64,000 nucleotides of DNA from positions 1,038,952 through 1,102,951 of the forward strand of contig CP010425.1 of the NCBI GenBank assembly GCA_000830295.1, written 5' to 3'. Below the pieces are notes generated by a model, which was not told the origin of the DNA, did not search any database, and was given only the letters and a program-made list of their open reading frames with translations. Positions 4,294 through 41,537 of the stretch are shown here, in pieces. Position 1 is the stretch's first letter, and every line of letters starts with the position of its first letter. This DNA comes from an archaeon GW2011_AR15. Its GTDB lineage: Archaea; Nanobdellota; Nanobdellia; Woesearchaeales; GW2011-AR15. The position numbers and the translations under genes are program-made.

Positions 4294-5986
<1,693 letters not shown>

Positions 5987-14754: not shown

Positions 14755-14769
14755 GTGTATGCATTACAC
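14755..14769 (+). promoter_or_regulatory. candidate NrtR-type operator 1 (GTGT-N7-ACAC), directly 3' of a TTTATATA box
   Basis: GTGTATGCATTACAC is followed by TAAG and lies 7 nt before the ATG of the Nudix-wHTH gene. It shares the GTGT-N7-ACACTAAG pattern with 16661-16679. Confidence 0.5.
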
Positions 14770-14775
14770 TAAGAG

Positions 14776-15456
14776 ATGGAAAAATTAAGAGGCCAGATGC
14801 AGGTAGCTGTTGACGCAGTTGTATTTACAGTGGAAAATGATGTTCTAAAGATACTTCTTATAGAGAGAAGAAACCAGCCGTTCCAGGGGAGATTTGCCCT
14901 TCCCGGTGGATTTGTGAACCCAGATGAGGAATTTGAGCAGGCTGTAAAAAGAGAGCTTTTTGAGGAAACCGGCGTGAAAGACATATTTGTAAAGCAGATA
15001 GGTGCATATGGCAAAGTCAGCAGGGATCCCAGAGGAAGGATAATTTCAATAGCCTTTCTTGCACTGATAAGCCATGACCAGAACCTAAAAGCCGCAACAG
15101 ACGCAGCGAAAGTTAAATGGGCCCCGTTAAATGATCTGCCTCCGCTTGCATTTGACCACAGGCAGATAATAAGCGACTCTCTTGAAGTCCTAAAGTTCGA
15201 AATACAAACCACAAATATCGCAAGAGAGATACTTCCTGAAGAATTTACATTAAGCAATCTCCAGTCACTGTATGAGAATATCCTCCAAAGAAAGCTTGAC
15301 AAGAGGAATTTCAGGAAAAAAATAAGGGAGCTTGAACTGGTAAAAGAAACCGGAAAGCAATTTATGGAGGGAGCACACAGGCCTGCAATGCTATATGAAT
15401 TTAGGGATAAGGAATATGAAAATTTAAAGGAAAGGATGCATGTTCTGCTAAGCTGA
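14776..15456 (+). CDS. nrtR: NrtR-like protein: Nudix (ADP-ribose pyrophosphatase-like) domain fused to a C-terminal winged-helix domain
   Basis: The Nudix box is intact (GGFVNPDEEFEQAVKRELFEETGV), followed by LAFDHRQII and then a tail of about 90 aa (TLSNLQSLYENILQRKLDKRNFRKKI...GAHRPAMLYEF). This is the layout of Nudix-related transcriptional regulators. Genomic context is NAD salvage. Confidence 0.72.
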   Translation: MEKLRGQMQVAVDAVVFTVENDVLKILLIERRNQPFQGRFALPGGFVNPDEEFEQAVKRELFEETGVKDIFVKQIGAYGKVSRDPRGRIISIAFLALISHDQNLKAATDAAKVKWAPLNDLPPLAFDHRQIISDSLEVLKFEIQTTNIAREILPEEFTLSNLQSLYENILQRKLDKRNFRKKIRELELVKETGKQFMEGAHRPAMLYEFRDKEYENLKERMHVLLS

Positions 15457-16660: not shown

Positions 16661-16675
16661 GTGTTTACTATACAC
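16661..16675 (+). promoter_or_regulatory. candidate NrtR-type operator 2 (GTGT-N7-ACAC), directly 3' of a TTTATATATA box
   Basis: GTGTTTACTATACAC is followed by TAAG. It lies in the divergent intergenic region upstream of the pncB operon. Confidence 0.5.
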
Positions 16676-16762
16676 TAAGTAAGACAATCAAGCTCAATCC
16701 TGAAAACAGGGTTGGGCTTTTTTTGGATGAAAATAAGTGTAAAAAATACAAGAAGTGAAAAT

Positions 16763-17086
16763 ATGGATGAAAACCTTGGGATGAAGATAGAAAGGCTCAG
16801 CAGGGAACTGGAAAGGGCACAACATGAAAGGTCATTGTGCAACCATGTTTTCGGAGAGCCTAACAGAATTTTAACAGAGTATAAAGTGCCTTACATTGTT
16901 GGGTATATACCTTGCGGTTCTGATCCAATCCCTGATTTAAAATACGAAACAAAAACAAGAATCGGATGGGAAAGGATGTGCCTGAATGATTGCGGATACA
17001 GAGAATACACCGAAGCACTGGAAGTGACACAGGAAAAGAGATACAAACCTGATTTCACAAAACCGATAGTAAGAACGGGAGGCTAA
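16763..17086 (+). CDS. hypothetical Cys-containing protein, first gene of the NAD operon
   Basis: The stop is 1 nt before the pncB ATG. The start was chosen at MDENLG, though upstream alternatives at 16712 and 16727 remain possible. I recognise no family. Confidence 0.5.
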   Translation: MDENLGMKIERLSRELERAQHERSLCNHVFGEPNRILTEYKVPYIVGYIPCGSDPIPDLKYETKTRIGWERMCLNDCGYREYTEALEVTQEKRYKPDFTKPIVRTGG

Positions 17087-17087
17087 A

Positions 17088-18467
17088 ATGACAAACAAAA
17101 CCATGCTTACAGATGAATACCAGCTCACAATGATGGCATCATACCTTGATAATAATATTGATGATAAGGCAACATTTGACATGTTTATCAGAGGGCTTCC
17201 TGAAGACTGGGGATACTTTATTGCAAACGGCATAGAAGATGCAATTGATTATGCAACAAGCATCAAATTTAGTAAAGACGATATTGATTTCCTCAGAAGC
17301 CAGGGAAAATACAGTGAAGATTTCCTTGATTTCCTCAGGGGTTTTAGGTTTAATGGTGAGATATATTCTGTTAAAGAGGGAGAAATTGTCTTTCCAAACC
17401 AGCCGGTATTAAGAGTAACCGGCAGCAGAACAGAAGCCCAGTTTCTTGAAACTGCCATACTTAATATAATTAATTTCCAGACAATGGTTGCATCAAAGGC
17501 AAACAGGGTTGTGAATGCTGCCGGAGAATCAACAGTGCTTGATTTTGGCCTGAGAAGAGCCCAGGGTGAGGACGCGGGGATGGAGGGCGCAAGGGCAGCT
17601 TATATTGGCGGTGCTTCAGGCACCAGCAATGTAAAAGCAGGAAAAGAATATGGGATTCCAACTGGCGGGACTCAGGCCCACAGCTATGTAATGAGCTTTG
17701 ATGATGAGGCGGATGCTTTCAGGGCATATGCAAAGACTTTTCCTGACAGGTCTGTCTTCCTTATTGATACATACAATACTCTTGAAGGTGCAGAAAAAGC
17801 GGCAATTGTAGCCAAGGAAATGGAAAAGCAGGGGCACAGGCTTGTCGGAGTCAGGCTGGATTCAGGAGACCTTGAAATGCTTTCAAAAGGCGTCAGAGAC
17901 ATATTCAACAGCCAAGGTCTTGGATATGTGAAAATATATGCAAGCAATGACCTGAATGAATACAAGATTGAAGACCTGGTGAGGAATGGGGCAAAAATAG
18001 ATGCTTTCGGTGTTGGGACAGAGATGATTACAGCAAAGCCGGTCTCCGCAATATCCGGAGTCTACAAGCTTGTTGAAGATACAGCAGGCCCAAAGATGAA
18101 ATTTTCACCGGGAAAGGAAAGCAACCCAGGAAAGAAACAGATTTATAGGATAAGTGATGAGAAAGGGACCTTCCTGTATGATGTAATGGCTCTTGAATCT
18201 GAAAAAATAGAAGGCAGGTCATTGCTTGAAAAAGTTGTTGAGAACGGATACAGAATAAGCCAGAGAAGAGACCTGAAAGAGATAAGGGAATATGCTCTTG
18301 ATTCAGTAAGCAGGCTTCCTGACAGCCTGAAGCAGGTCAGAGTTGCAGACAAGTATGAGGTAAGAAAATCAGAAGGCCTGACTAGCCTTATAGATGAGCT
18401 TGGGGAAAAATATCTCCAAAGCCTTCCTTTTTACAGCGTAGTTCATCCAATTTCAATAAATCAATAA
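17088..18467 (+). CDS. pncB: nicotinate phosphoribosyltransferase
   Basis: The N-terminus MLTDEYQLTMMASY is characteristic. GLRRAQG, GTSNV and RLDSGDL follow the family order. Confidence 0.9.
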   Translation: MTNKTMLTDEYQLTMMASYLDNNIDDKATFDMFIRGLPEDWGYFIANGIEDAIDYATSIKFSKDDIDFLRSQGKYSEDFLDFLRGFRFNGEIYSVKEGEIVFPNQPVLRVTGSRTEAQFLETAILNIINFQTMVASKANRVVNAAGESTVLDFGLRRAQGEDAGMEGARAAYIGGASGTSNVKAGKEYGIPTGGTQAHSYVMSFDDEADAFRAYAKTFPDRSVFLIDTYNTLEGAEKAAIVAKEMEKQGHRLVGVRLDSGDLEMLSKGVRDIFNSQGLGYVKIYASNDLNEYKIEDLVRNGAKIDAFGVGTEMITAKPVSAISGVYKLVEDTAGPKMKFSPGKESNPGKKQIYRISDEKGTFLYDVMALESEKIEGRSLLEKVVENGYRISQRRDLKEIREYALDSVSRLPDSLKQVRVADKYEVRKSEGLTSLIDELGEKYLQSLPFYSVVHPISINQ

Positions 18468-18497
18468 GTGTAAAAAATACAATAATAGGTGAAGCAA

Positions 18498-19013
18498 ATG
18501 AAAACAACATTGAACAAAGTTGTTAATGATAAAGGATTCAGGAAATATACCACACATAAAGCAGAAGCCGGGGATATAATCACTTCTCCTGAGTTTGCTT
18601 TTGGGGAATACGGTGTTTTCTACGATGATGATAAGCACCTGAGGCTTGACAAGTATAATATCAGTGTAGACGGGCACACAAGAACTCTGGAGGTGCAGTA
18701 TTCAAACCCTGAGATACCGAGAGGGAAACCTGATGAACTGATAACAATAGATATTGCCGCGTATGACCCTTCTCGGGGAACGGCAAAATTCCTCGTTGAA
18801 GAGGCTTATCTTGGCGGCGGTTCAGGCCCTTGCAGCCATGATCCTTATCCTGATGGATGGAATGTAAAGGCAAGAAGGCTTTCAGATGATGCGTCATATG
18901 ATCCAAAAGGCAAACTAATAGATTTCTACCAGAGCGGTTCTTTCACAAACAAGGTCAGGGAAGTTACTGTAGTCGGGAAGATGGAGAAAATAATCGAGTG
19001 GAGAAAAAAATAG
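18498..19013 (+). CDS. hypothetical protein (171 aa) embedded between pncB and pncA
   Basis: The ORF is clean and globular. I recognise no family. The ATG at 18498 is preferred over the tracked GTG at 18489. Confidence 0.58.
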   Translation: MKTTLNKVVNDKGFRKYTTHKAEAGDIITSPEFAFGEYGVFYDDDKHLRLDKYNISVDGHTRTLEVQYSNPEIPRGKPDELITIDIAAYDPSRGTAKFLVEEAYLGGGSGPCSHDPYPDGWNVKARRLSDDASYDPKGKLIDFYQSGSFTNKVREVTVVGKMEKIIEWRKK

Positions 19014-19029: not shown

Positions 19030-19650
19030 ATGAAAACAATAGCATGGAATGTAGATACACAATACGACTTTATGCGTGCTGACGGGAAACTATATGTGCA
19101 GGATGCAGAAAAGATTGAGGGAAACCTTGAGAAACTGACAAACCTTTTCAGAAAAAAAGGGACAGCAATAGTAAATACAGGGGACTGGCATAATGAGCAT
19201 ACTGCTGAAATTTCAGATACACCTGATTTTGTCAATACCTTTCCGGAGCACTGCATGCAGAATACACATGGAGCGGATTATGTCGGCGCAACCAAGCCAG
19301 CAAATGCGCTCTATGTCGACTGGCAGGATGAAAAGGCTGACCTTGATGCAATTGCAGGAGCAAAAGAGATTGTAATATACAAGGACATGTTCGATGTCTT
19401 TGCAGGAAACCCGCACACTGACAAAATTGTTGATGCACTGGGCCCGGACAGGGTAATCGTATATGGTGTTGCAACGAATGTCTGCGTCAATTATGCTGTA
19501 AGAGGGCATCTGGAAAGAGGGCTTGAAGTCTATGTCGTAGAGGATGCAATAAAAGAGCTCCCAAATATACCTTCACCAGTTGATGGCTGGGTAAAGGCAG
19601 GAGCCAGACTGATCAGAACAGAAGATGCAGTTAATTACATCGGAGGTTAA
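19030..19650 (+). CDS. pncA: nicotinamidase/pyrazinamidase (isochorismatase family)
   Basis: VDTQYDF (catalytic Asp), a DWH metal site and VIVYGVATNVCV (catalytic Cys) are present. Confidence 0.85.
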   Translation: MKTIAWNVDTQYDFMRADGKLYVQDAEKIEGNLEKLTNLFRKKGTAIVNTGDWHNEHTAEISDTPDFVNTFPEHCMQNTHGADYVGATKPANALYVDWQDEKADLDAIAGAKEIVIYKDMFDVFAGNPHTDKIVDALGPDRVIVYGVATNVCVNYAVRGHLERGLEVYVVEDAIKELPNIPSPVDGWVKAGARLIRTEDAVNYIGG

Positions 19651-19651
19651 A

Positions 19652-20584
19652 ATGCTCGAACAAAAAATACTGCTGGCACAAATGGATCCTGAAACTGTAA
19701 GCGATGAGATAGGCGACTTTGTCATACAACAGGTAAAGGAGGGGGATTATATAGGATGTGTTATAGGGCTATCAGGAGGCATTGATTCCACAACCACAGC
19801 TACACTGATAAAAAGAGCGTTTGACAGGCATAATCTCAGAAGAAAACGGAACAAGCTTGAGATTGTGGGGTATATCATGCCTTCAGATATCAATAACCCT
19901 GAAGATGCGAGAGACGGCATAAGGGTCGCAGAAAACCTTGGGGTAAGATATGAGGTTCTGGATATAAACGGCGTTGTAGAAGCATACAGGACAACAAATC
20001 CCGAAGCATTTGATGTAGAATACCACAAAGGAAACCTTATGTCTAGGATTAGGGGGAACATCCTTTCCACAAAAGCAGCTACAGAAAGGAAACTTGTTGC
20101 CGGCACTGGAAACTGGGATGAAGATTTCGGCCTGGGATACTATACTTTATTCGGCGACGGGGCTGTACACATGAGCCCAATCGGCAATCTTCCAAAGAGG
20201 CTTGTAAGAGAGATGGCAAAATATCTTGGCATTGATTCCTATTTTGTCAACAGGGAGCCTACTGCAGGGCTTGAGCCCGGCCAGACAGACTTTAAGGATC
20301 TGGGCTACAGCTATGACACGGCTGAATTAATTATAAGAGGCCTGGAGCTTGGCATTGACCCACGGGACTTGGCTGATTATTCCCAGGTAAAAAAACAGAT
20401 TGAACCAGAAATCAGCTATAAGGGAGCCAAATTCACTTCTGCATATGAGATTATAGAAGACATAATGCAGAGACACATTGTTGCAGAGGCTAAGGCAGGT
20501 ATTGTCAGCCCTCCTGCAGCGCCTGTATCCCTATACTACGGCAAAGAGATCTGGAGGACAATAAAAAAGGTAGAGAGGGAATAA
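19652..20584 (+). CDS. nadE: NH3-dependent NAD+ synthetase
   Basis: The PP-loop GLSGGIDSTTTA is present. GGAGG lies 5 nt upstream of the ATG at 19652, inside the end of pncA. Confidence 0.9.
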   Translation: MLEQKILLAQMDPETVSDEIGDFVIQQVKEGDYIGCVIGLSGGIDSTTTATLIKRAFDRHNLRRKRNKLEIVGYIMPSDINNPEDARDGIRVAENLGVRYEVLDINGVVEAYRTTNPEAFDVEYHKGNLMSRIRGNILSTKAATERKLVAGTGNWDEDFGLGYYTLFGDGAVHMSPIGNLPKRLVREMAKYLGIDSYFVNREPTAGLEPGQTDFKDLGYSYDTAELIIRGLELGIDPRDLADYSQVKKQIEPEISYKGAKFTSAYEIIEDIMQRHIVAEAKAGIVSPPAAPVSLYYGKEIWRTIKKVERE

Positions 20585-20585
20585 A

Positions 20586-21035
20586 ATGACAAAACCAACA
20601 CAGCTCTATGTAGCTACAACCCTCATAATAAAGCATGAGGATAAGTACGTGCTTATAGAAAGAAAAAACCCGCCGTACGGCTTTGCCCTTCCCGGAGGCT
20701 TTCTCGAGCCAAACCTGACTGGGGTAAAAAATGGAGAAAAAGAAGCCAAAGAAGAGACGAATCTAGAGATCCTGATTCATAACCCCTATACTCCAATAGT
20801 CTTCTCATCTCCTGATAGAGATCCCAGAAGCAGAGTAGTTGATCTTATTTACATAGCTACAGGAACGGGCAAGCTGGCTGCCGGAGATGATGCAAAGGCA
20901 GTCCATGAATTCTGGCCTGATGAGATAGAGAAAATGTTTGGCAAGAACAAATTTGCCTTTGACCATGAAGACATACTAAAACACTATTTTTCAAGGAGGA
21001 TGTTCTATGACTATTCCGGCAACGATAGAAGGTAG
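20586..21035 (+). CDS. Nudix hydrolase (divergent Nudix box)
   Basis: LPGGFLEPNLTGVKNGEKEAKEETNLEI keeps the EKEAKEET core but not the full GX5EX7REUXEEXGU spacing. Confidence 0.75.
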   Translation: MTKPTQLYVATTLIIKHEDKYVLIERKNPPYGFALPGGFLEPNLTGVKNGEKEAKEETNLEILIHNPYTPIVFSSPDRDPRSRVVDLIYIATGTGKLAAGDDAKAVHEFWPDEIEKMFGKNKFAFDHEDILKHYFSRRMFYDYSGNDRR

Positions 21036-21651
21036 AGTAGGGACAATCGCGAGGTTTAAGCCTCTCCATATGGGGGCCCAGCTTATGCTTGAAACCATAT
21101 GCTCACAGGCAGGTGAAGTCATAATCGGAATCGGAAGCTCAAATAAGTATGATGTAAGAAATCCTTTTACTGCTGAGGAAACAGAGGAGATGATACGCAG
21201 GGCTCTCTCAGGATATGATAACTATTCTGTTGTCCACGTCCCTGATTTTGCCCACCTCGGCCCTGAATATCAGGATGGCCAGGCATGGAGGAAGAATGTT
21301 CTCAGGTTGTTTGGAGAGCTGGATTATTTCATAGTGGAGAACGGCTATGTAAAAAAACTGCTTGAAGAGGATTATAAAATTGCAAGACCTTCCAGCCTTA
21401 TTCCTAAAGAGAGCCAGATAATGGTCAGCGGGACAATGGTCAGGGTTGAAATGGCAAAAAATGGCGACTGGAAAAGTCTTGTTTCAAAAGAAGTAGCGGA
21501 TTATCTGACTGAGCCCGGCAAAGCTGGAAGCTATGAAAATCTTGTTGACAGATTTAGAAAAGAATTCGGGCTTGAAACTCTGGCCAGCATGGCAACTGAG
21601 GGGATCTATGCCAGGGATGCTGAAACAGAATACAGGAGGACACTGGTGTAA
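21007..21651 (+). CDS. nadM: archaeal-type nicotinamide-nucleotide adenylyltransferase homolog (HxGA instead of HxGH)
   Basis: GTIARFKPLHMGAQ, IGSSNKYDVRNPFTAEE and SGTMVRVEMAKNGDWKSLV parallel the NadM motifs GRFQPFHxGH, IGSAQ..NPFT and SGTEVR...DW. It overlaps the upstream gene by 29 nt. Confidence 0.75.
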   Translation: MTIPATIEGRVGTIARFKPLHMGAQLMLETICSQAGEVIIGIGSSNKYDVRNPFTAEETEEMIRRALSGYDNYSVVHVPDFAHLGPEYQDGQAWRKNVLRLFGELDYFIVENGYVKKLLEEDYKIARPSSLIPKESQIMVSGTMVRVEMAKNGDWKSLVSKEVADYLTEPGKAGSYENLVDRFRKEFGLETLASMATEGIYARDAETEYRRTLV

Positions 21652-21652
21652 A

Positions 21653-22432
21653 ATGGCAAAAATAGGGAATTATGAAATCATAAAGGAAATAGCAATTGAC
21701 AGCAAAGGGGAACCTGTTGGCGGAATGGGAAGGATATTCCAGGCAAAGCATATCTATCTGGATGAGCTTGCATGCATAAAGCAGAACAAGGCAAAAGAGT
21801 TCGAGGATGTGCTTTACAACGAGGCAAAAATACTCTGGAGGCTCAACGAACACCATTCAATACCTACTGTAAAGGATTTCTTTCCTGTTGCTGATTCATA
21901 TGTCATGGTAATGGATTACATAGACGGCCCTACCCTTGACTCTCTTATTGAGAAGAATTCAAGAATGCATCCTGAAGATGCATCCTGGATTACCGAACGG
22001 CTTCTTTCAGCACTGCAGTATTCTACTTACAAGGGGATTGTTCATGGCGACATAAAACCTGGGAACCTTTTCATTGAAGCAAAACATCATGATGTAAAAC
22101 TCATAGACTGGGGCCTTGCCTCATACAAGCCCAAAAGTACCAGCAAACAGATGGGATATACCCCGAGATATGTAGCTCCTGAGATAAGGGATGGCAAGTC
22201 GCCTATTCCTGAATCCGATGTCTATGGTACGGGAATGATCATGCTCTATGCATTGGGAGGTGATGTTGACAGCAAGGAGTTCAGGGACGAGACTCCTGAG
22301 CCGATAAAAGAATTCTGCAGCAGGCTAATAAGATATGACCCTATGCAGAGACCAAGCCTGGAAAAGGAGAACTTGGCAAAAGCTTTGTCAGACATAAGAG
22401 AACAGGTCTTTGGAAGAAGACACATGAAATAA
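21653..22432 (+). CDS. Hanks-type serine/threonine protein kinase (catalytic domain only, about 260 aa)
   Basis: The glycine loop is GGMGRIF and the lysine lies in ACIKQ. The catalytic loop is HGDIKPGNLF, with DWG (the DFG equivalent) and YVAPE. The ATG is 1 nt after the nadM stop. Confidence 0.85.
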   Translation: MAKIGNYEIIKEIAIDSKGEPVGGMGRIFQAKHIYLDELACIKQNKAKEFEDVLYNEAKILWRLNEHHSIPTVKDFFPVADSYVMVMDYIDGPTLDSLIEKNSRMHPEDASWITERLLSALQYSTYKGIVHGDIKPGNLFIEAKHHDVKLIDWGLASYKPKSTSKQMGYTPRYVAPEIRDGKSPIPESDVYGTGMIMLYALGGDVDSKEFRDETPEPIKEFCSRLIRYDPMQRPSLEKENLAKALSDIREQVFGRRHMK

Positions 22433-22433
22433 T

Positions 22434-23411
22434 ATGAGGTTGATAAAAATGTATTCGTGGAGCGGAGATACAACAAACTGGAGAGGAGCAGGGGCGTATA
22501 AATTTGACAAAAACCCCTACAAAGCCGATCCGAGAGCAAAAAAGGCGAGGACATATTCCTCAAGCAGCACGCCAAACATGAAGATGGTGGACCCTAAAGA
22601 TAAAGAAATTGAATCCTACAGTGCAAACCCAATACTTGTAGGCGTGGATGTTACTGGCTCAATGGCCAGCTGGCCTGGTGAGATATTTGACAGGCTGCCG
22701 CTTTTTGCAACAACACTTGCGCAGTACAGGGATGACGCGGAGTTTTGCTTTGCTGCAATAGGGGATGCAACCTGCGACAGCTATCCATTGCAGGTAAATA
22801 AGTTTGGGAAAGGGATTGACCTTGAGGATCACATAAAGGCGCTTGGCGCTGAAGGAGGCGGAGGAGGACAGATAAAAGAAAGCTATGAGTTATTCGGCTA
22901 TTACATGCTGAACAATGTCAAAACTCCAAATGCACTTTCGCCATTCCTTTTCATCCTGGGAGACGAAATGTTCTACCCTGCTGTGAATCCTGATCAGGTT
23001 GAGCATTATATCGGTTCAACTTTGCAGTCAGGAATAGATTCTCTTGGGCTATGGGCTGCCTTGTCGCAGAAATACAATATGTTCTTCCTGCAGAAGCCTT
23101 ATGGCCATGGGGGAGAGGCAAGTGTAGATGCTGAAGTGAGGAAAGCCTGGGAAAAGGCCCTGGGAAAAGAAAGAGTGATACAGCTTCCCAGCATGGAAAG
23201 GACTGTTGACATAATGATGGGGATTGTAGCCAAAAGCTGGGGAAAATATGATGACTTTAGCCTAAGCCTTGGGGCCAGGCAGCCAGATGATGAGCAGACC
23301 AAAGTCCATATGTCAATAAGGTATCTTCCGGACGGCACAACTGAACATTCGGTTATGGATGCTAAAGGAAGCACAAAAACCAAGTCACTGCTCGATCTTG
23401 GCAGCAAATAA
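22434..23411 (+). CDS. von Willebrand factor A (vWA)-like protein
   Basis: A MIDAS-like VGVDVTGSM is followed by AIGDATCDS and FILGDEM in the spacing expected for a vWA fold. An alternative ATG lies at 22449. Confidence 0.6.
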   Translation: MRLIKMYSWSGDTTNWRGAGAYKFDKNPYKADPRAKKARTYSSSSTPNMKMVDPKDKEIESYSANPILVGVDVTGSMASWPGEIFDRLPLFATTLAQYRDDAEFCFAAIGDATCDSYPLQVNKFGKGIDLEDHIKALGAEGGGGGQIKESYELFGYYMLNNVKTPNALSPFLFILGDEMFYPAVNPDQVEHYIGSTLQSGIDSLGLWAALSQKYNMFFLQKPYGHGGEASVDAEVRKAWEKALGKERVIQLPSMERTVDIMMGIVAKSWGKYDDFSLSLGARQPDDEQTKVHMSIRYLPDGTTEHSVMDAKGSTKTKSLLDLGSK

Positions 23412-23440
23412 ATTTTTTATTTTTATTTTTGGAGGGAAAA

Positions 23441-24343
23441 ATGAAAACAAAAGCCATTGTAACAATGCCACCATACGCCGGATACTTAAGCGATGTTGTG
23501 AAGCACCCCATTGTCTCAGGCATAAGGCTGAATACTGTAATGCCAACCAAGGAAAAGCTAGAAGACATGCTTAAAAGGCTTAATAATGCCACCGGAGATA
23601 AAGATCTGTGGATTGACCTTAAAGGCAGACAGCTCAGGACAAAGGGATACTGGGTTCCGCCATTCACTGAAATACAGCTGACTCACACAATAAAGGTCGA
23701 TACACCAGCAACTGCTGTTTTCAGTGACGGGAAGGAGTACGCAACAATACTGGAGGTTGACGGGAACCGCCTGATAATGCAGGAAGGCCCAAGAAGGGTT
23801 GTCGGCCCCGGGGAATCCCTTAACATAAGGGGTAAAAACCTCTCAATTGACGGCTATTTTACAGAGACGGATTTTAGGTATATTGAGGCAGGACAAAAGA
23901 CAGGAACCAAAAAATACATGCTTTCTTTTGTAGAGTCAAAAACAGACATAGATTTATTAAAAAAATTATATTCCGAAGCTGAGATTATTGCAAAAATCGA
24001 GTCAAAGAAAGGGCTTGATTATGTAATGAGAAGCTGGAACAATGATGCAAGGCTGATGGCAGCCAGGGGAGACCTGTATCTTGAGCTGGATATGCCTCAT
24101 GACATAATAAAAGCTTCAGAGTCCATAATCCGGAAAGACAAGGATGCAATTGTCGCCTCAAGGATATTTGACTCATTGTCCTATCAGGAGGAAATAAGCA
24201 GCCAGGATATCGGCGATGTTGACAGCCTTATGAGGATGGGATACAGGAATTTCATGTTCGGTGATTACATATGCATGCACAAGGAATCCATAATGAGCGG
24301 CCTGAACCTGCTTTACAGGATGGCGGAGAGCTATGAAAAATGA
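23441..24343 (+). CDS. pyruvate-kinase-like barrel protein lacking the C-terminal regulatory domain
   Basis: Four motifs fall in the order of PK motifs DTKGPEIR, SFV, AKIE and MVARGDLG: IDLKGRQLR, LSFVESKTDI, IIAKIESKKGL and LMAARGDLYLEL. The protein is only about 300 aa. GGAGGG precedes the ATG at 23441. Confidence 0.6.
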   Translation: MKTKAIVTMPPYAGYLSDVVKHPIVSGIRLNTVMPTKEKLEDMLKRLNNATGDKDLWIDLKGRQLRTKGYWVPPFTEIQLTHTIKVDTPATAVFSDGKEYATILEVDGNRLIMQEGPRRVVGPGESLNIRGKNLSIDGYFTETDFRYIEAGQKTGTKKYMLSFVESKTDIDLLKKLYSEAEIIAKIESKKGLDYVMRSWNNDARLMAARGDLYLELDMPHDIIKASESIIRKDKDAIVASRIFDSLSYQEEISSQDIGDVDSLMRMGYRNFMFGDYICMHKESIMSGLNLLYRMAESYEK

Positions 24344-25209
24344 ATAATGTACTCGTAGTGTATAAGAAAAGCACTTTTGAGCTTTATGGCAATTCTCCTG
24401 ACGGGAAAACCCGGGAGTATGTCCGGGATAACCTTGAATATCTTAAAAAAAGCCATGATTCGCAGCAGAAAACTCTTGAGACTGTAGCAGACGAGCTTAA
24501 CCAAAGAAACATAAAAAACCACGTAATATACAGAGCTGATTTAAAAGAATTAAGCGGAGAGCTGAAGAAACTAAACGGATATGATCTTATTGTGAGCGTA
24601 GGAGGGGACGGCACCTTATTGGAGGTGTCCCATTATGTGACAGATATTCCTGTATTGGGAGTTAATTCCGACAGCAGCGGAAGCACGGGATATTTCAGTA
24701 TGGCAAATTCAGGGAATTTTGGCTATTTAATTGATAATTTCAGTAATACAAAAATGACAAGACTGAACAGGCTTGAAATAATGCTAAACAGGGAGATATT
24801 GCCTGAGCTGGTGCTCAATGACATATTAATAGCCCATTCAAATCCTGCCGCAAATACGAGGTTTAAGCTATATATGAACAATCAGGAAGAGATGTTCAGA
24901 AACAGCAGCGGTGTGCTTATATGCACTCCCGCAGGGTCAACTGCATTCATGTATCAGGAAAACGGCAATATCATGCCTATTGATTTTGGGTATATGCAGT
25001 ATCACATAAGAAGCAACAGGAAAGAGCACGATATGTTCAGATTTGCTGGCAAACTGGAGATAGAATCACTGACAAGGGAAGGTGGGATATGGATAGATGG
25101 AGAGCACCTGAGGTACGATTTTGCTCTTGGAGACAAAATTAAGATATATATGGGCCAGCCGCTCCAGCTGGTCGGTGATTTAGAGGAAAAGAGAAAACAC
25201 TTTAAATAA
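24340..25209 (+). CDS. nadK: NAD+ kinase
   Basis: The GGDG motif appears as LIVSVGGDGTLL, and a later region is TPAGSTAF. The start overlaps the upstream stop by 4 nt. Confidence 0.88.
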   Translation: MNNVLVVYKKSTFELYGNSPDGKTREYVRDNLEYLKKSHDSQQKTLETVADELNQRNIKNHVIYRADLKELSGELKKLNGYDLIVSVGGDGTLLEVSHYVTDIPVLGVNSDSSGSTGYFSMANSGNFGYLIDNFSNTKMTRLNRLEIMLNREILPELVLNDILIAHSNPAANTRFKLYMNNQEEMFRNSSGVLICTPAGSTAFMYQENGNIMPIDFGYMQYHIRSNRKEHDMFRFAGKLEIESLTREGGIWIDGEHLRYDFALGDKIKIYMGQPLQLVGDLEEKRKHFK

Positions 25210-25772: not shown

Positions 25773-26906
25773 TCAGATGGATTCTATTATCTTTAGGAAT
25801 GCAGCAGCTATTTTCTCCTCTTTTTCTCGCGGGTACTTTGTTTCTGCCAGTGTCTTTCCTTCAAGAGGCTTGTCTGAGCCCACACCGGCAAAGAAATAGT
25901 TTATGCTGCCAAGATTTGGATAATTGCTATGGTATCCATGATCAAGGGAAGCCATAACTGACCATTCCATATCTAGAAAATCCCCCCCTGCTTTGAGACC
26001 ATGCTCCAGGCTGGATTTGCTCTGTTTCAGCACAGAAGTCATGTTTATTGTTGTGCCTGCATGAACCTCTTCCGCAATGCTTTTCCTGAATATCCCAGAG
26101 ACTTTTTTGTTGAACTCAAGCTGGTTGTATATTGGGTATGTCCTGAAATCCCCTTTTACAACCTTCATTTCGTCAAGGGCTGCTATGGGAATGCAGATAT
26201 CACCAACTTTAAGATCGGGATTCAATATCCCGATTTTGCCGAAATGAAATATGTTCAGGTCAACCCCTAAAAAGTATGAGCTTGTCATGGAATAAATCTG
26301 GGAAAGTATGTTCCTGGCCTGATCAGCAAAAATATAGTCAAAACATATGACCAGCTTATTATTTAGCTTCAGGATTTTGTAATTAAGGTATTCATTAGTA
26401 TTCTCCCTTATGGCTTTAATGCCATTGAACTTAAGGGATCTGTGCGGGCCAAGCATAACAACTATCTCCTTGGATTTCACAATATCTTTAGGATTGATGC
26501 CCTTAAATATCTCAAGGACAAGCGAAAATGCAAATTCCTCGAATCTTTTGCCCGCCATTGCAGCATCATCTTTGTAATTGTTTACCTTAAGCGTGAGCTG
26601 CCTTCCAAGGATTTCGCTTAGGCTTTCCACAAGGTCAGTGTCCCTGAACTTTCGCATGACTCCCCTTGTGTTTACAATATGCAGTATCCCTTTTTTGCTG
26701 TCCCAGAAATGGGGTTCTGTTGACTTCTCTGGGAAGTACTTTACCAGTCCTTTAATCTCAGTTTCCAGCTCTGAAGTTTTCCAGGCATTGTGCATAACAA
26801 CTTCGCTGAGCTTCTTCAGCTGGTCATCTCTGACACGAGAGTCAGGATGGAGTTTCCTGTCAAAAGTATATGTCTCCCTCTGCTTCTGGACCATAACCCT
26901 ATCCAT
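25773..26906 (-). CDS. PNP/UDP-family nucleosidase or phosphorylase-like protein with an unknown N-terminal domain of about 150 aa
   Basis: HFGKIGILNPDLKVGDICIP and GGDFLDMEWSVMA resemble the two core motifs of the PNP_UDP_1 fold (as in MTA and AMP nucleosidases). Confidence 0.5.
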   Translation of the reverse strand: MDRVMVQKQRETYTFDRKLHPDSRVRDDQLKKLSEVVMHNAWKTSELETEIKGLVKYFPEKSTEPHFWDSKKGILHIVNTRGVMRKFRDTDLVESLSEILGRQLTLKVNNYKDDAAMAGKRFEEFAFSLVLEIFKGINPKDIVKSKEIVVMLGPHRSLKFNGIKAIRENTNEYLNYKILKLNNKLVICFDYIFADQARNILSQIYSMTSSYFLGVDLNIFHFGKIGILNPDLKVGDICIPIAALDEMKVVKGDFRTYPIYNQLEFNKKVSGIFRKSIAEEVHAGTTINMTSVLKQSKSSLEHGLKAGGDFLDMEWSVMASLDHGYHSNYPNLGSINYFFAGVGSDKPLEGKTLAETKYPREKEEKIAAAFLKIIESI

Positions 26907-41333: not shown

Positions 41334-41335
41334 AC

Positions 41336-41422
41336 TGCGTCCGCCGGGATTCGAACCCGGACACCCGGCTGTCTTTGCATAGGCTTGGAAGGCCGGAGTC
41401 ATAGCCATTAGACCACAGACGC
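41336..41422 (-). tRNA. tRNA-Gly(UCC) with an intron of about 15 nt
   Basis: The reverse complement reads GCGTCTG TG GTCTAATGGCTATGAC T CCGGC CTTCCAA[GCCTATGCAAAGACA]GCCGG GTGT CCGGG TTCGAAT CCCGG CGGACGC A. Confidence 0.78.
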
Positions 41423-41537
41423 ACAGGAGGTATAGAAAAATAAATCGTTTATTAATCTTATTGAAAATCACAGCCAAATCTGGTGTGAATTTTTATTATC
41501 ATAATGTTTATAAACTGACTGAATTTTCTTAGGCTCA

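What the first reader, a model, noticed from the sequence alone, without database searches (positions are those of the whole stretch)
21653..24343. Protein kinase, vWA protein and truncated pyruvate-kinase-like gene embedded in an NAD salvage operon
Three consecutive, tightly coupled genes sit between the NMNAT homolog and NAD kinase. Intergenic gaps are 1 nt and 1 nt, then a GGAGGG-led ATG, then a 4-nt overlap into nadK.
- Gene 1 is a bare Hanks-type kinase domain (HGDIKPGN, DWG, APE).
- Gene 2 is a vWA-like protein with a DxTxS MIDAS-like motif (VGVDVTGSM).
- Gene 3 is a pyruvate-kinase-like A+B barrel of about 300 aa. It keeps the DLKG, SFV, AKIE and ARGDL motifs but lacks the C domain.

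None of these belongs to any textbook NAD pathway. As I recall, kinase plus vWA pairs were described as signalling modules (TerY-P triads) in comparative work on tellurite-resistance systems. There they co-occur with phosphoribosyltransferases and TIM-barrel enzymes thought to make a nucleoside-like metabolite. A PRTase-like gene, a methyltransferase and a nucleosidase-like gene flank this operon.

Two hypotheses follow. The module could post-translationally control NAD salvage. Alternatively, the whole locus could make or sense a pyridine-nucleotide-derived metabolite. I am not aware of a described system with this composition.
Basis: partly seen in the sequence, partly recalled or inferred. 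Interest (0 to 1): 0.72.

Follow-up and report, generated by a model that had tools for sequence, protein, structure and literature searches.

The report
Kinase, vWA adaptor and mini pyruvate kinase
Three genes of unknown role (a protein kinase, a metal-binding adaptor-like protein and a stripped-down pyruvate-kinase-like enzyme) form a conserved, co-regulated part of the NAD-making operon of tiny DPANN archaea, and versions of the same cassette recur in several bacterial phyla and in large phages, which points to an undescribed accessory module of NAD/adenine-nucleotide metabolism.

Summary
Window 21653-24343 encodes an active-looking Hanks kinase, a divergent vWA protein with no Pfam or PDB sequence match, and a 300-aa pyruvate-kinase-like protein (A+B domains, no C domain). 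All three are tightly packed between an NMNAT-like gene and nadK.

It is not a chance insertion.
- In DPANN loci where the flank could be judged, PKL follows the vWA gene in 41/41. NMNAT and a specifically related kinase precede it in 38/41 each.
- Bacteria of at least four phyla carry a self-contained NMNAT-vWA-PKL-NadE operon without the kinase.
- Four viral contigs carry a compact DnaJ-kinase-vWA-PKL cassette. Other phages pair the vWA gene with a kinase and a PurA-like gene.
- A palindromic operator (GTGT-N7-ACACTAAG) sits upstream of nrtR and of the operon, and recurs at operon starts in 14 further distinct DPANN operons (18 loci).
- The vWA C-terminus co-varies with the kinase.

Best reading (confidence 0.4): an NrtR-controlled accessory module. 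The vWA protein is an adaptor for NMNAT and the mini-PK, the mini-PK is a PEP-dependent phosphotransferase, and the kinase switches the vWA tail.

It is not a TerY-P triad and not NARP1-3. I found no description of it.

The parts
14755..14773 (+). Candidate NrtR operator (GTGTATGCATTACACTAAG) just after a TATA-like box, upstream of nrtR
   Evidence: The pattern GTGT-N7-ACACTAAG occurs exactly twice in the window, against 0.07 expected.
14776..15456 (+). NrtR-type regulator (Nudix domain plus NrtR winged helix)
   Evidence: Pfam NrtR_WHD 1.4e-24 and NUDIX 6e-22. An NrtR gene is present in 27/36 DPANN loci judged on both sides.
16661..16679 (+). Second copy of the operator (GTGTTTACTATACACTAAG), after TTTATATATA, upstream of the NAD operon
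   Evidence: The same motif lies just upstream of the first operon gene in most of the DPANN loci that carry it (18 loci, 15 distinct operons), and directly upstream of the NMNAT-STK-vWA-PKL block in L026.
16763..17086 (+). Small Cys-containing ORF (107 aa), likely the first gene of the operon
   Evidence: ORF list. A homologue lies in the same position in L012.
17088..18467 (+). Nicotinate phosphoribosyltransferase (PncB)
   Evidence: NCBIfam NF006696, 539 bits, above its cut-off.
18489..19013 (+). 174-aa protein of unknown function (phrog_7702). Specific to this window, not part of the conserved operon.
19030..19650 (+). Nicotinamidase-like isochorismatase (PncA)
   Evidence: Pfam Isochorismatase 2.7e-18.
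19625..20584 (+). NAD synthetase (NadE)
   Evidence: Pfam NAD_synthase 3.8e-52.
20586..21035 (+). Nudix hydrolase (ADP-ribose pyrophosphatase-like)
21007..21651 (+). NMNAT-like nucleotidyltransferase. It is the most constant neighbour of the vWA gene. Its HxGH motif reads HMGA.
   Evidence: NF002243 gives 82.8 bits, below the cut-off of 127. It lies upstream of the vWA gene in 38/41 DPANN and 25/25 bacterial loci. Motif survey.
21653..22432 (+). Hanks-type Ser/Thr protein kinase, bare catalytic domain
   Evidence: Pkinase 1.1e-35. All catalytic motifs are conserved in 47 orthologues. A specific orthologue (>100 bits) is adjacent in 38/41 DPANN loci and in viral triads.
22449..23411 (+). Divergent vWA/MIDAS protein with a disordered Ser/Thr/Lys-rich C-terminal tail (...GSTKTKSLLDLGSK). 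The ORF could also start at 22434.
23441..24343 (+). Mini pyruvate-kinase-like enzyme (PKL): A barrel plus a short B domain, no C domain
24340..25209 (+). NAD kinase (NadK), overlapping PKL by 4 nt

Best explanation
The three genes are a conserved accessory module of NAD synthesis. They are transcribed with the Preiss-Handler genes under an NrtR-type (ADP-ribose-sensing) repressor.

Core: the core is the vWA protein together with the NMNAT-like adenylyltransferase and the mini pyruvate kinase (PKL).

PKL (inferred): a catalytically competent, non-allosteric, PEP-dependent phosphotransferase. It most likely regenerates NTP from NDP for the NTP-consuming enzymes it travels with. These are NMNAT, NadE and NadK here, and PurA-like enzymes in phages.

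vWA protein (inferred): a Mg2+-dependent binding partner or adaptor. It couples or gates NMNAT and PKL and takes over the regulatory role of the missing PK C domain.

Kinase (inferred): a dedicated kinase, present in DPANN and in large phages, phosphorylates the Ser/Thr-rich C-terminal tail of the vWA protein and so switches the assembly.

Shown: gene identities, conservation, linkage, shared operator, retained catalytic residues, and the co-variation of tail and kinase.

Inferred: physical interaction, the PKL substrate, and the kinase target.
For: 1. Linkage. In DPANN loci PKL follows the vWA gene in 41/41, NMNAT precedes it in 38/41, and a specific kinase precedes it in 38/41. In bacterial loci (Planctomycetota, Chloroflexota, Acidobacteriota, Myxococcota, Clostridia) NMNAT precedes it in 25/25 and PKL follows in 19/28. 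Genes often overlap by a few bases. The bacterial flanks are unrelated housekeeping genes, so the four-gene operon is self-contained.

2. Co-regulation. The operator GTGT-N7-ACACTAAG occurs twice in the window (0.07 expected). It lies upstream of nrtR and of the operon, and at operon starts in 18 DPANN loci (15 distinct operons). In L026 it lies directly upstream of NMNAT-STK-vWA-PKL.

3. PKL is an enzyme under strong constraint. It shows 60-67% identity among DPANN. In 77 PKLs from DPANN, bacteria and phages it keeps R32, N34, D66, K68, R73, K220, E222 and D246 (PykF numbering), with T278 changed to S.

4. In phages the same vWA family sits with NTP-using purine enzymes. Examples are STK-vWA-PurA-like in Mycobacterium cluster C phages and STK-vWA-PKL-PurA-like in L116.

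5. The vWA tail follows the kinase. All 44 vWA proteins that have the specific kinase carry a disordered S/T/K-rich tail ending in a motif like K[ST]KSL, including two where one gene separates the kinase from the vWA gene. The 30 without the kinase have a Zn-ribbon (19) or a short end (11).

6. Eukaryotic relatives fuse this vWA domain to a U-box E3 ligase or to a Nudix domain. That fits a target-binding module that works with a covalent modifier.

7. The kinase keeps all catalytic motifs.
Against: - No direct evidence of protein-protein contact. No multimer model could be run, and no NMNAT-vWA or vWA-PKL fusion was seen among the best 150 representatives.
- NMNAT and NadE release PPi and AMP, not ADP. 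An ADP-to-ATP kinase is therefore not an obvious stoichiometric partner.
- PKL has family-specific changes on the nucleotide side of the active site. These are the B-domain Lys156 to invariant Glu, H37 to M, Q279 to R and S312 to G. They could mean a different acceptor.
- Some Myxococcota keep NMNAT-vWA but replace PKL with an FAD monooxygenase.
- The tail-kinase correlation is confounded by phylogeny: DPANN plus phages against bacteria.
- The census uses a simple ORF caller and phmmer with the window's proteins as queries.
Confidence: 0.4

Rival explanations
1. PKL, with the vWA protein as an obligate subunit, catalyses a new PEP-dependent reaction on a pyridine or ADP-ribose-derived substrate. 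Examples would be phosphorylation of nicotinate/nicotinamide riboside, ribose phosphate, ADP-ribose or NAD. The module would then be a missing or alternative enzymatic step of NAD salvage, not a regulator or energiser.
For: - The PEP/Mg2+ phosphotransfer core is retained, but the residues on the acceptor side are remodelled and invariant across three kinds of host: K156E, H37M, Q279R, S312G/G313D.
- PKL scores far below the pyruvate-kinase equivalog cut-off (63.9 against 306 bits).
- DPANN operons also recruit ADP-ribosylglycohydrolase (15/48), nucleoside hydrolase (6/48) and a PNP-like gene.
- The vWA domain has an invariant EGGGGG(Q/H) loop next to the MIDAS site that could bind phosphates.
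- One eukaryotic relative is fused to a Nudix domain.
Against: - The bacterial four-gene operon contains no PRTase, nucleosidase or Nudix gene.
- Viral triads stand alone, without any NAD gene.
- Most nucleotide-contact residues of pyruvate kinase (R32, N34, R73, the TxxP motif) are kept, so NDP remains the simplest acceptor.
- vWA domains are not known as catalytic subunits (established knowledge).
Confidence: 0.25
2. The kinase-vWA-PKL cassette is a mobile virus-host conflict module. It would be a counter-defence or defence device acting on adenine-nucleotide or NAD pools, or on host proteins through the vWA adaptor and kinase. DPANN and some bacteria would have captured it into NAD operons.
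For: - Compact DnaJ-STK-vWA-PKL cassettes occur in four viral contigs of 94-485 kb. Their kinases are specifically related to the DPANN kinase: three score 157-215 bits and L116 scores 61, against 30-60 bits for generic kinases.
- STK-vWA-PurA-like occurs in about 200 Mycobacterium phage records.
- Distribution across bacterial phyla is patchy and the flanks are unrelated.
- The operon is controlled by an ADPR sensor, and NAD depletion is a known immune strategy (bioRxiv 10.1101/2024.02.11.579819; PMC9503650).
- TerY-P-like kinase/vWA modules can act as antiphage systems (PMC11090510).
Against: - In cellular genomes the module is strictly tied to biosynthetic NAD genes and not to defence islands.
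- PADLOC gives only generic kinase hits and nothing for the vWA protein or PKL.
- No effector (nuclease, NADase, pore) is associated with it.
- Sequence conservation is high (50-67% identity), not the rapid evolution typical of conflict systems.
Confidence: 0.2
3. It is a TerY-P-type metal-sensing phosphorylation switch that makes or senses a nucleoside-like metabolite with the flanking PRTase-like gene and methyltransferase.
For: - The kinase plus vWA pairing resembles TerY-P (PMC11090510).
- A weak TelA-like hit (23.5 bits, below its cut-off) lies near the triad in viral contig L116.
- The bacterial vWA proteins carry a Zn-ribbon, as TerY-P kinases do.
Against: - No PP2C phosphatase is associated with any triad. 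The single hit among 7,849 ORFs is not adjacent.
- The vWA protein matches no vWA/TerY model.
- The PRTase-like gene and the methyltransferase of the window have no counterpart in any related locus.
- No Ter genes are present in the window.
Confidence: 0.08
4. It is a chance insertion, or PKL is simply the organism's ordinary (short) pyruvate kinase that happens to lie in this operon.
For: Source databases name PKL 'pyruvate kinase'. Most catalytic residues survive.
Against: - The arrangement recurs in more than 70 independent loci from archaea, bacteria and viruses.
- The bacterial phyla that carry it normally have a canonical pyruvate kinase as well (general knowledge, not checked here), so PKL is unlikely to be their housekeeping enzyme.
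- PKL lacks the C domain and fails the equivalog cut-off.
Confidence: 0.02

Closest known systems
TerY-P triad (TerY-like vWA + PP2C phosphatase + Ser/Thr kinase; Anantharaman et al. 2012, as summarised in PMC11090510)
   Same: A Hanks kinase is encoded next to a MIDAS-type vWA protein as a presumed phosphorylation-dependent switch. A Zn-ribbon is attached to one component: the kinase in TerY-P, and the vWA protein in the bacterial versions here.
   Different: - There is no PP2C partner.
- The vWA protein belongs to a separate family that no vWA profile detects.
- The kinase is optional.
- The constant partners are NMNAT-like and PK-like enzymes.
- The context is NAD biosynthesis, not Ter or restriction genes.
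NrtR-regulated NAD salvage operons (pncA, pncB, nadE, nadM-Nudix; from my own knowledge, Rodionov et al. 2008)
   Same: There is a Nudix-wHTH regulator, a palindromic operator upstream of both the regulator gene and the operon, and the Preiss-Handler genes plus NMNAT and Nudix.
   Different: To my knowledge no described NrtR regulon contains a protein kinase, a vWA protein or a PK-like enzyme, and the literature searches found none.
Canonical pyruvate kinase (for example E. coli PykF, PDB 1PKY/4YNG)
   Same: The A-domain TIM barrel and the B-domain cap are present. R32, N34, D66, K68, R73, K220, E222 and D246 are retained. Foldseek gives E about 1e-20.
   Different: - There is no C (allosteric/tetramerisation) domain, and the B domain is short.
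- K156 is changed to Glu, H37 to M, S36 to V, Q279 to R, and S312/G313/E314 are rearranged.
- It scores 63.9 bits against a cut-off of 306 for the equivalog model.
- It is always encoded next to a vWA gene.
ARG-centred ADP-ribose systems with a Nudix-HTH regulator and a vWA 'peptide-binding chaperone' (Iyer et al. 2022, PMC9503650, section 3.8)
   Same: There is an ADPR-sensing Nudix regulator. ADP-ribosylglycohydrolase is present in 15/48 related DPANN operons. A vWA protein is interpreted as a Mg2+-dependent peptide binder.
   Different: Those systems centre on ARG plus phosphatases and nucleases and look like defence systems. Here the core is biosynthetic (NMNAT, NadE), with a PK-like enzyme, and ARG is optional and absent from this window.
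Phage NAD reconstitution pathways NARP1, NARP2 and NARP3 (bioRxiv 10.1101/2024.02.11.579819; PMC13464706)
   Same: They are phage-borne gene sets that bear on NAD and adenine-nucleotide supply.
   Different: NARP1 is Adps (PRPS-like) plus Namat. NARP2 is NadV plus NMNAT. NARP3 is PnuC plus NadR. None contains a vWA, PK-like or Hanks-kinase component.
MoxR AAA+ / vWA pairs (NorQ-NorD, CbbQ-CbbO, RavA-ViaA)
   Same: A vWA/MIDAS protein acts as an adaptor between a partner protein and a target enzyme. NorD is among the structural matches.
   Different: No AAA+ gene is associated in cellular loci. AAA genes appear near only two viral triads.

Membership tests
TerY-P triad | PP2C-type protein phosphatase encoded with the kinase and the vWA gene | tested here: not met
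   phmmer with two PP2C sequences was run against 7,849 ORFs of the window and all loci. It gave one hit (L082), about 5 kb from a bacterial cluster and not adjacent. It gave none in any DPANN or viral triad. The Pfam lists show no PP2C.
TerY-P triad | TerY-like vWA domain recognisable by vWA profiles | tested here: not met
   There is no Pfam or NCBIfam hit at E<=0.01. The fold is vWA only by structure comparison.
TerY-P triad | Ser/Thr kinase partner, typically with a C-terminal Zn-ribbon or OB fold | tested here: inconclusive
   A kinase is present and looks active. It is a bare domain here and is fused to a DnaJ domain in phages. The Zn-ribbon is on the bacterial vWA protein instead.
Pyruvate kinase (EC 2.7.1.40) | A-domain TIM barrel with PEP/Mg2+ catalytic residues (R, K, E, D, T) | tested here: met
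   R29, K185, E187 and D211 are invariant, and T is replaced by S240, in 77 sequences. Pfam PK gives 42.9 bits, above the cut-off of 30. Foldseek E is about 1e-20.
Pyruvate kinase (EC 2.7.1.40) | C-terminal allosteric/tetramerisation domain and full-length equivalog score | tested here: not met
   The protein is 300 aa. The TM-score normalised to the target is only about 0.5. TIGR01064 gives 63.9 bits against a cut-off of 306.4.
Pyruvate kinase (EC 2.7.1.40) | Monovalent-cation site and B-domain Lys that contacts the nucleotide | tested here: not met
   S36 is V, T67 is L, and K156 is an invariant Glu. N34 and D66 are kept.
Pyruvate kinase (EC 2.7.1.40) | PEP + ADP -> pyruvate + ATP activity | not testable with these tools
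   This needs an enzyme assay.
vWA / MIDAS domain proteins | Rossmann-like vWA fold | tested here: met
   The AF2 model has pLDDT 85. Foldseek matches integrin beta-I, SpaC, CMG2 and NorD vWA domains at E 1e-6 to 1e-4.
vWA / MIDAS domain proteins | Complete MIDAS (DxSxS ... T ... D) | tested here: inconclusive
   DxTxS (D72, T74, S76) and the beta4 GDE (D177) are invariant. The usual Thr position is occupied by an invariant EGGGGG(Q/H) loop. No model coordinates were available to check the geometry.
Hanks-type (eukaryotic-like) Ser/Thr protein kinases | Gly-loop, VAIK Lys, alphaC Glu, HRD-type catalytic loop, DFG and APE | tested here: met
   Pkinase 1.1e-35. The motifs GGMG, ACIK, NEA, HGDIKPGN, DWG and APE are conserved in 47 orthologues.
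NrtR regulon | NrtR gene nearby and a shared palindromic operator upstream of the regulator and of its target operon | tested here: met
   NrtR_WHD plus NUDIX. The operator occurs twice in the window against 0.07 expected, and recurs at operon starts in 18 DPANN loci. Binding and the ADPR response were not tested.
Phage NAD reconstitution pathways (NARP1-3) | Adps+Namat, NadV+NMNAT, or PnuC+NadR gene pairs | tested here: not met
   None of these families occurs in the module.
Known anti-phage defence systems (PADLOC) | Matches of the components to defence-system models | tested here: not met
   Only generic kinase models (mad6, PD-T4-6) match the kinase. Nothing matches the vWA protein or PKL.

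The most novel reading that the evidence does not exclude
The vWA protein and the mini-PK, together with the NMNAT-like enzyme, form a previously unknown enzyme complex that carries out or gates a PEP-driven step of NAD/adenine-nucleotide synthesis. The vWA MIDAS site plus its Gly-rich loop would sense a nucleotide or ADP-ribose ligand. The same recognition domain would be re-used with different covalent modifiers: a Hanks kinase in DPANN and phages, and a U-box E3 ligase in protists. This would be a new regulatory principle for NAD homeostasis, shared by archaea, bacteria, eukaryotes and viruses.
Probability: 0.3. Interest if true: 0.85.

Novelty: new variant of a known kind. Interest (0 to 1): 0.74.

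Why it matters
NAD biosynthesis is considered a closed book enzymatically. Yet here two or three extra genes of unknown function are conserved inside NAD operons.

- The vWA family is found in 305 places among one genome each of about 185,000 species. It forms 1,697 protein clusters at 50% identity, reaches protists, and is carried by large phages.
- If PKL supplies NTP from PEP, or performs a new phosphorylation, it changes how NAD synthesis is powered in energy-poor symbionts and anaerobes.
- If the kinase and vWA pair gates NMNAT, it would be, to my knowledge, the first described post-translational switch on prokaryotic NAD synthesis.
- The phage versions suggest another way for viruses to manipulate adenine-nucleotide and NAD pools, alongside NARP1-3.
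- The vWA family has no Pfam model and no solved structure. It gives a concrete, testable target, for example Mycobacterium phage gp251-253, which is genetically tractable.

Tried and rejected
- TerY-P membership was rejected. There is no PP2C, no TerY-type profile hit and no Ter genes.
- NARP1/2/3 and other published NAD counter-defence pathways have different components.
- A known defence system was rejected. PADLOC gives only generic kinase hits.
- An ordinary pyruvate kinase or a chance insertion was rejected by the census and the equivalog score.
- The flanking PRTase-like gene, the methyltransferase, the 174-aa gene and the 185-aa membrane gene are not part of the system. They are not conserved in related loci. 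Only the PNP-like 377-aa gene recurs, in 7 loci.
- The sigma-70 promoter and intrinsic terminator scan found no enrichment (25 against 18.8±4.6 promoters; 5 against 8.0±2.4 terminators). It is not valid for archaea in any case.
- Ten literature searches found no description of the NMNAT-vWA-PKL association.
- PDB entry 8iw2 is a 321-aa 'pyruvate kinase' that scores like any other PK against the PKL profile. It is therefore probably not a PKL family member, and no paper was found.
- Fusion ('Rosetta stone') evidence for vWA-PKL or NMNAT-vWA contact was sought among the best 150 representatives and not found. U-box and Nudix fusions turned up instead.
- Bacterial flanks were scanned for further NAD genes. 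Only unrelated housekeeping genes were found.

Full report
**What is in the window.** The + strand between about 16.7 and 25.2 kb carries one tightly packed gene string:
- a small ORF
- NAPRT (17088-18467)
- a 174-aa unknown
- a nicotinamidase-like isochorismatase
- NadE
- a Nudix hydrolase
- an NMNAT-like nucleotidyltransferase (21007-21651)
- a Hanks kinase (21653-22432)
- a 320-325-aa protein with no family hit (22434/22449-23411)
- a 300-aa pyruvate-kinase-like protein, PKL (23441-24343)
- NadK (24340-25209)

An NrtR-type regulator (Nudix plus NrtR winged helix) lies upstream at 14776-15456. Every homologue of gene 2 starts at MYSW, and a GAGG precedes that ATG. The real start is therefore probably 22449, which gives a 16-nt spacer. 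Best homologues are named Woesearchaeota or Nanoarchaeota, and the gene occurs on a 1.16-Mb contig. The organism is therefore a DPANN archaeon.

**The three proteins.**
- *Kinase.* It is a bare catalytic domain (Pkinase 1.1e-35). The Gly-loop, VAIK Lys, alphaC Glu, HGDIKPGN, DWG and APE are all conserved across 47 orthologues.
- *Gene 2.* It has no Pfam, NCBIfam, PADLOC or PDB sequence match. It matches only phrog_2971, of unknown function. Its AF2 model (pLDDT 85) is a vWA fold, with integrin beta-I, SpaC, CMG2 and NorD as matches.
  - Invariant features are DVTGSM (a DxTxS MIDAS motif), AIGD, a Gly-rich EGGGGG(Q/H) loop where the MIDAS Thr usually sits, and GDE. A conserved N-terminus MYSWG..D..W is also present.
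- *PKL.* It models at pLDDT 95 and matches pyruvate kinases over the A and B domains only. It fails the pyruvate-kinase equivalog cut-off (63.9 against 306 bits).
  - I aligned it to E. coli PykF. The register of the DxKG..R motif was set by hand.
  - PKL keeps R32, N34, D66, K68, R73, K220, E222 and D246, and has Ser for T278.
  - It has invariant family-specific changes: S36V, H37M, T67L, K156E, Q279R, and S312G with G313D.
  - The same pattern holds in 46 DPANN, 27 bacterial and 4 viral PKLs.
  - So PKL is a constrained, probably active, PEP/Mg2+ phosphotransferase. It is not an ordinary pyruvate kinase.

**Neighbourhood census in cellular genomes.** Homologues of gene 2 number 756 in the 90% clustered database. 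They form 1,697 clusters at 50% identity. They occur in 305 places among one genome for each of about 185,000 species. I called ORFs in 85 fetched loci and searched them with the window's proteins.
- *DPANN loci.* Counting only loci whose flank was long enough to judge, PKL follows the vWA gene in 41/41. The NMNAT-like gene precedes it in 38/41, and a specifically related kinase (>100 bits) precedes it in 38/41. NadE, NAPRT, PncA, NadK, Nudix and NrtR are usually in the same locus.
- *Independent annotation.* The Pfam-annotated contigs show the same order.
- *Optional DPANN genes.* These are ADP-ribosylglycohydrolase (15/48), a 290-aa unknown family (14/48), NadA (8/48), nucleoside hydrolase (6/48), a radical-SAM protein (6/48) and NadB.
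- *Bacterial MAGs.* These come from Planctomycetota, Chloroflexota, Acidobacteriota, Myxococcota and Clostridia, at 42-48% identity. The pattern is a self-contained NMNAT-vWA-PKL-NadE operon with no dedicated kinase. NMNAT is upstream in 25/25 and PKL downstream in 19/28. The flanks are unrelated housekeeping genes.
- *Myxococcota variant.* It has a receptor-type kinase, then NMNAT, then vWA, followed by an FAD monooxygenase in place of PKL.

The constant pair is thus NMNAT-like plus vWA. PKL is nearly constant, and the kinase is a lineage-specific addition.

**Viruses.**
- Four viral contigs carry a compact kinase-vWA-PKL cassette with no NAD genes nearby: L086; L112, which is the same as L115 and is the 485-kb LR745208; L116; and L117. 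In L086 a 443-aa and a 197-aa gene are interleaved.
- In L086 and L112 the kinase is fused to an N-terminal DnaJ domain; L116 and L117 were not checked. Three of the kinases score 157-215 bits against the window's kinase and L116 scores 61, against 30-60 bits for generic kinases.
- In L116 the cassette is followed by an adenylosuccinate-synthetase-like gene.
- More distant vWA relatives (25-30% identity) sit next to a PurA/PurZ-like gene in many IMG/VR contigs. They do so in about 200 Mycobacterium cluster C phage records, for example Colt: gp251 Ser/Thr kinase, gp252 'hypothetical', gp253 PurA-like. They also do so in Rhizobium jumbo phages.

The common denominator of the partners (NMNAT, NadE, NadK, PurA-like, PK-like) is Mg-NTP chemistry on the route to adenine nucleotides and NAD.

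**Regulation.** The palindrome GTGT-N7-ACACTAAG occurs exactly twice in the 64-kb window, against 0.07 expected. Each copy lies just downstream of a TATA-like box. One is in front of nrtR (14755-14773) and one is in front of the operon (16661-16679). The exact motif recurs in 18 DPANN loci (15 distinct operons), in most of them immediately upstream of the first operon gene. In L026, where the operon is split, it lies directly upstream of NMNAT-STK-vWA-PKL. This puts the triad in the presumed NrtR (ADP-ribose-responsive) regulon. Binding and effector response are inferred from what is known of NrtR. The bacterial-type promoter and terminator scan is uninformative. The T-rich 29-nt spacer before PKL could modulate read-through. 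In other genomes the vWA-PKL spacer ranges from an overlap to about 1.3 kb, the longer ones holding inserted genes.

**A clue to the kinase's target.** The C-terminal end of the vWA protein co-varies with the kinase.
- All 44 distinct vWA proteins with the specific kinase have a long, low-confidence (disordered) Ser/Thr/Lys-rich tail. This count includes DPANN and viral versions, and two where one gene separates the kinase from the vWA gene. The tail ends in a short motif such as TKSLLD, KSKKL or SKRLD. Here it reads ...GSTKTKSLLDLGSK.
- The 30 without the kinase have a CxxC...CxxC zinc ribbon (19) or a short end (11).
- The DPANN-specific 290-aa protein that is often inserted next to the vWA gene ends in the same KSxKL motif.
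- This is correlative and phylogenetically confounded. It still makes the tail the obvious candidate substrate or docking site.

**Relatives in eukaryotes.** Among the 150 best representatives, seven have a C-terminal U-box E3-ligase domain (six at Pfam E≤8e-12, one weak at 0.005). One, from a marine protist transcriptome, has a C-terminal Nudix domain. One U-box form lies on a gene-dense eukaryotic contig, next to a mitochondrial carrier, a La protein and ribosomal protein L35Ae. A recognition domain that is joined either to an E3 ligase or to a neighbouring kinase fits an adaptor that presents a bound client to a modifier. The Nudix fusion is a second, independent link to ADP-ribose/NAD chemistry.

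**Interpretation.** I favour, at confidence 0.4, an NrtR-controlled accessory module.
- The vWA protein binds the NMNAT-like enzyme and PKL. It may stand in for the missing regulatory C domain of PKL.
- PKL transfers phosphate from PEP, most simply to an NDP.
- The kinase, where present, switches the vWA tail.

Weak points:
- There is no interaction evidence.
- NMNAT and NadE release AMP and PPi, not ADP.
- The acceptor side of the PKL active site is remodelled. That keeps alive the alternative that PKL performs a new reaction on a pyridine or ADP-ribose-derived substrate (0.25).
- A mobile conflict-module origin or function is plausible given the viral cassettes (0.2). Against it stand the strict biosynthetic context, the high sequence conservation and the absence of effectors.
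- The TerY-P reading fails its membership test: no PP2C, no TerY-type vWA, no Ter genes. I give it 0.08.
- A chance insertion or an ordinary pyruvate kinase is excluded by the census (0.02).

**Novelty.** None of ten full-text searches found this association. The closest published ideas are the TerY-P triads (PMC11090510) and vWA 'peptide-binding chaperones' in ADP-ribose systems (PMC9503650). Source databases call PKL 'pyruvate kinase' and the vWA protein 'hypothetical'. I file it as a new variant of known kinds (kinase/vWA switches and NrtR-regulated NAD operons). Its core, NMNAT-like plus vWA plus mini-PK, has no described counterpart.

**Caveats.**
- The census uses a naive ORF caller and single-sequence phmmer queries.
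- Taxon labels are those of the MAG records. Some 'Methanosarcinales' and 'Euryarchaeota' labels on DPANN-type operons are probably binning artefacts, and I grouped loci by operon type and similarity.
- Structure models are monomers, and I had no access to their coordinates.

Noticed in passing
window 14755-14773 and 16661-16679: A conserved palindromic operator GTGT-N7-ACACTAAG lies just after TATA-like boxes upstream of nrtR and of the NAD operon. It occurs twice in the window (0.07 expected). It recurs at operon starts in 18 DPANN loci. It looks like the DPANN NrtR binding site.
   Followed up: partly
window 21007-21651 (residues about 23-32, ARFKPLHMGA): The NMNAT-like protein has HMGA in place of the HxGH signature. 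Most DPANN orthologues have HxG[G/A/S], while the bacterial ones keep HxGH. The protein scores below the NCBIfam NMNAT cut-offs. Its activity, or its dependence on partners, is an open question.
   Followed up: partly
window 18489-19013: A 174-aa gene sits between NAPRT and the nicotinamidase. It has no Pfam hit but matches phage family phrog_7702 (4.8e-11). It is absent from all related loci, so it is a window-specific insertion.
   Followed up: partly
window 16763-17086: A small 107-aa ORF with several Cys residues lies directly upstream of NAPRT and downstream of the operator. A homologue is in the same position in L012, and a 101-aa gene occupies that slot in L001.
   Followed up: partly
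window 25773-26906 (- strand): A 377-aa protein gives a weak PNP_UDP_1 (nucleoside phosphorylase superfamily) hit. It lies convergent to the operon end and is conserved in the same position in 7 other DPANN loci (L004, L007, L012, L015, L019, L020, L055). It may belong to the NAD/nucleoside theme.
   Followed up: partly
L039:11068-11958 and 13 other DPANN loci (for example L040, L043, L044, L049, L050, L052, L055; L025:9127-10002): A 290-aa protein family with no Pfam or PDB match is inserted next to the vWA gene, usually between vWA and PKL. It has conserved GGRLVTTDWA and NYAQCHPKWWLEGSS motifs. Its C-terminal KSxKL tail resembles that of the vWA protein. It could be a second kinase substrate. 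It is not present in the window.
   Followed up: partly
P0265, P0307, P0341, P0356, P0277, P0328 (vWA plus U-box); P0344 (vWA plus Nudix); L113:8001-9233: Eukaryotic (protist) relatives of this vWA family are fused to a CHIP-like U-box E3 ligase domain or to a Nudix domain. One lies on a gene-dense eukaryotic contig.
   Followed up: partly
L110 (Mycobacterium phage Colt gp251-253); L111 (Rhizobium phage RHph_TM30 gp018-019); L091, L101, L105, L108: In many phages a distant member of the vWA family is encoded immediately upstream of a PurA/PurZ-like adenylosuccinate synthetase gene. It is often preceded by a Ser/Thr kinase or a DnaJ-domain protein. The phage vWA proteins have their own conserved C-terminal motifs (...GVVRF or ...PRxxxPRL).
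   Followed up: partly
L067:6937-14966, L076, L081: A Myxococcota variant has a kinase fused to a periplasmic-binding-protein domain, then NMNAT, then vWA with a Zn-ribbon. These are followed by an FAD-dependent aromatic-ring hydroxylase-like gene and a 734-aa unknown in place of PKL.
   Followed up: partly
L079:8370-9350: In a Polyangiaceae MAG a full-length DnaJ gene ends 10 nt before the NMNAT-vWA-PKL-NadE operon. This is notable because the viral kinases of the cassette carry DnaJ domains. It could be coincidence.
   Followed up: no
L116:2730-3728 and 4618-5928: A weak TelA-like hit (23.5 bits, below its cut-off) and an AAA ATPase lie upstream of the viral STK-vWA-PKL-PurA-like cassette. 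This is the only hint of a Ter-type connection.
   Followed up: no
window 41335-41423: The tRNA-Gly(TCC) call is 89 nt long, longer than a standard tRNA. That may indicate an intron, as is common in archaea.
   Followed up: no
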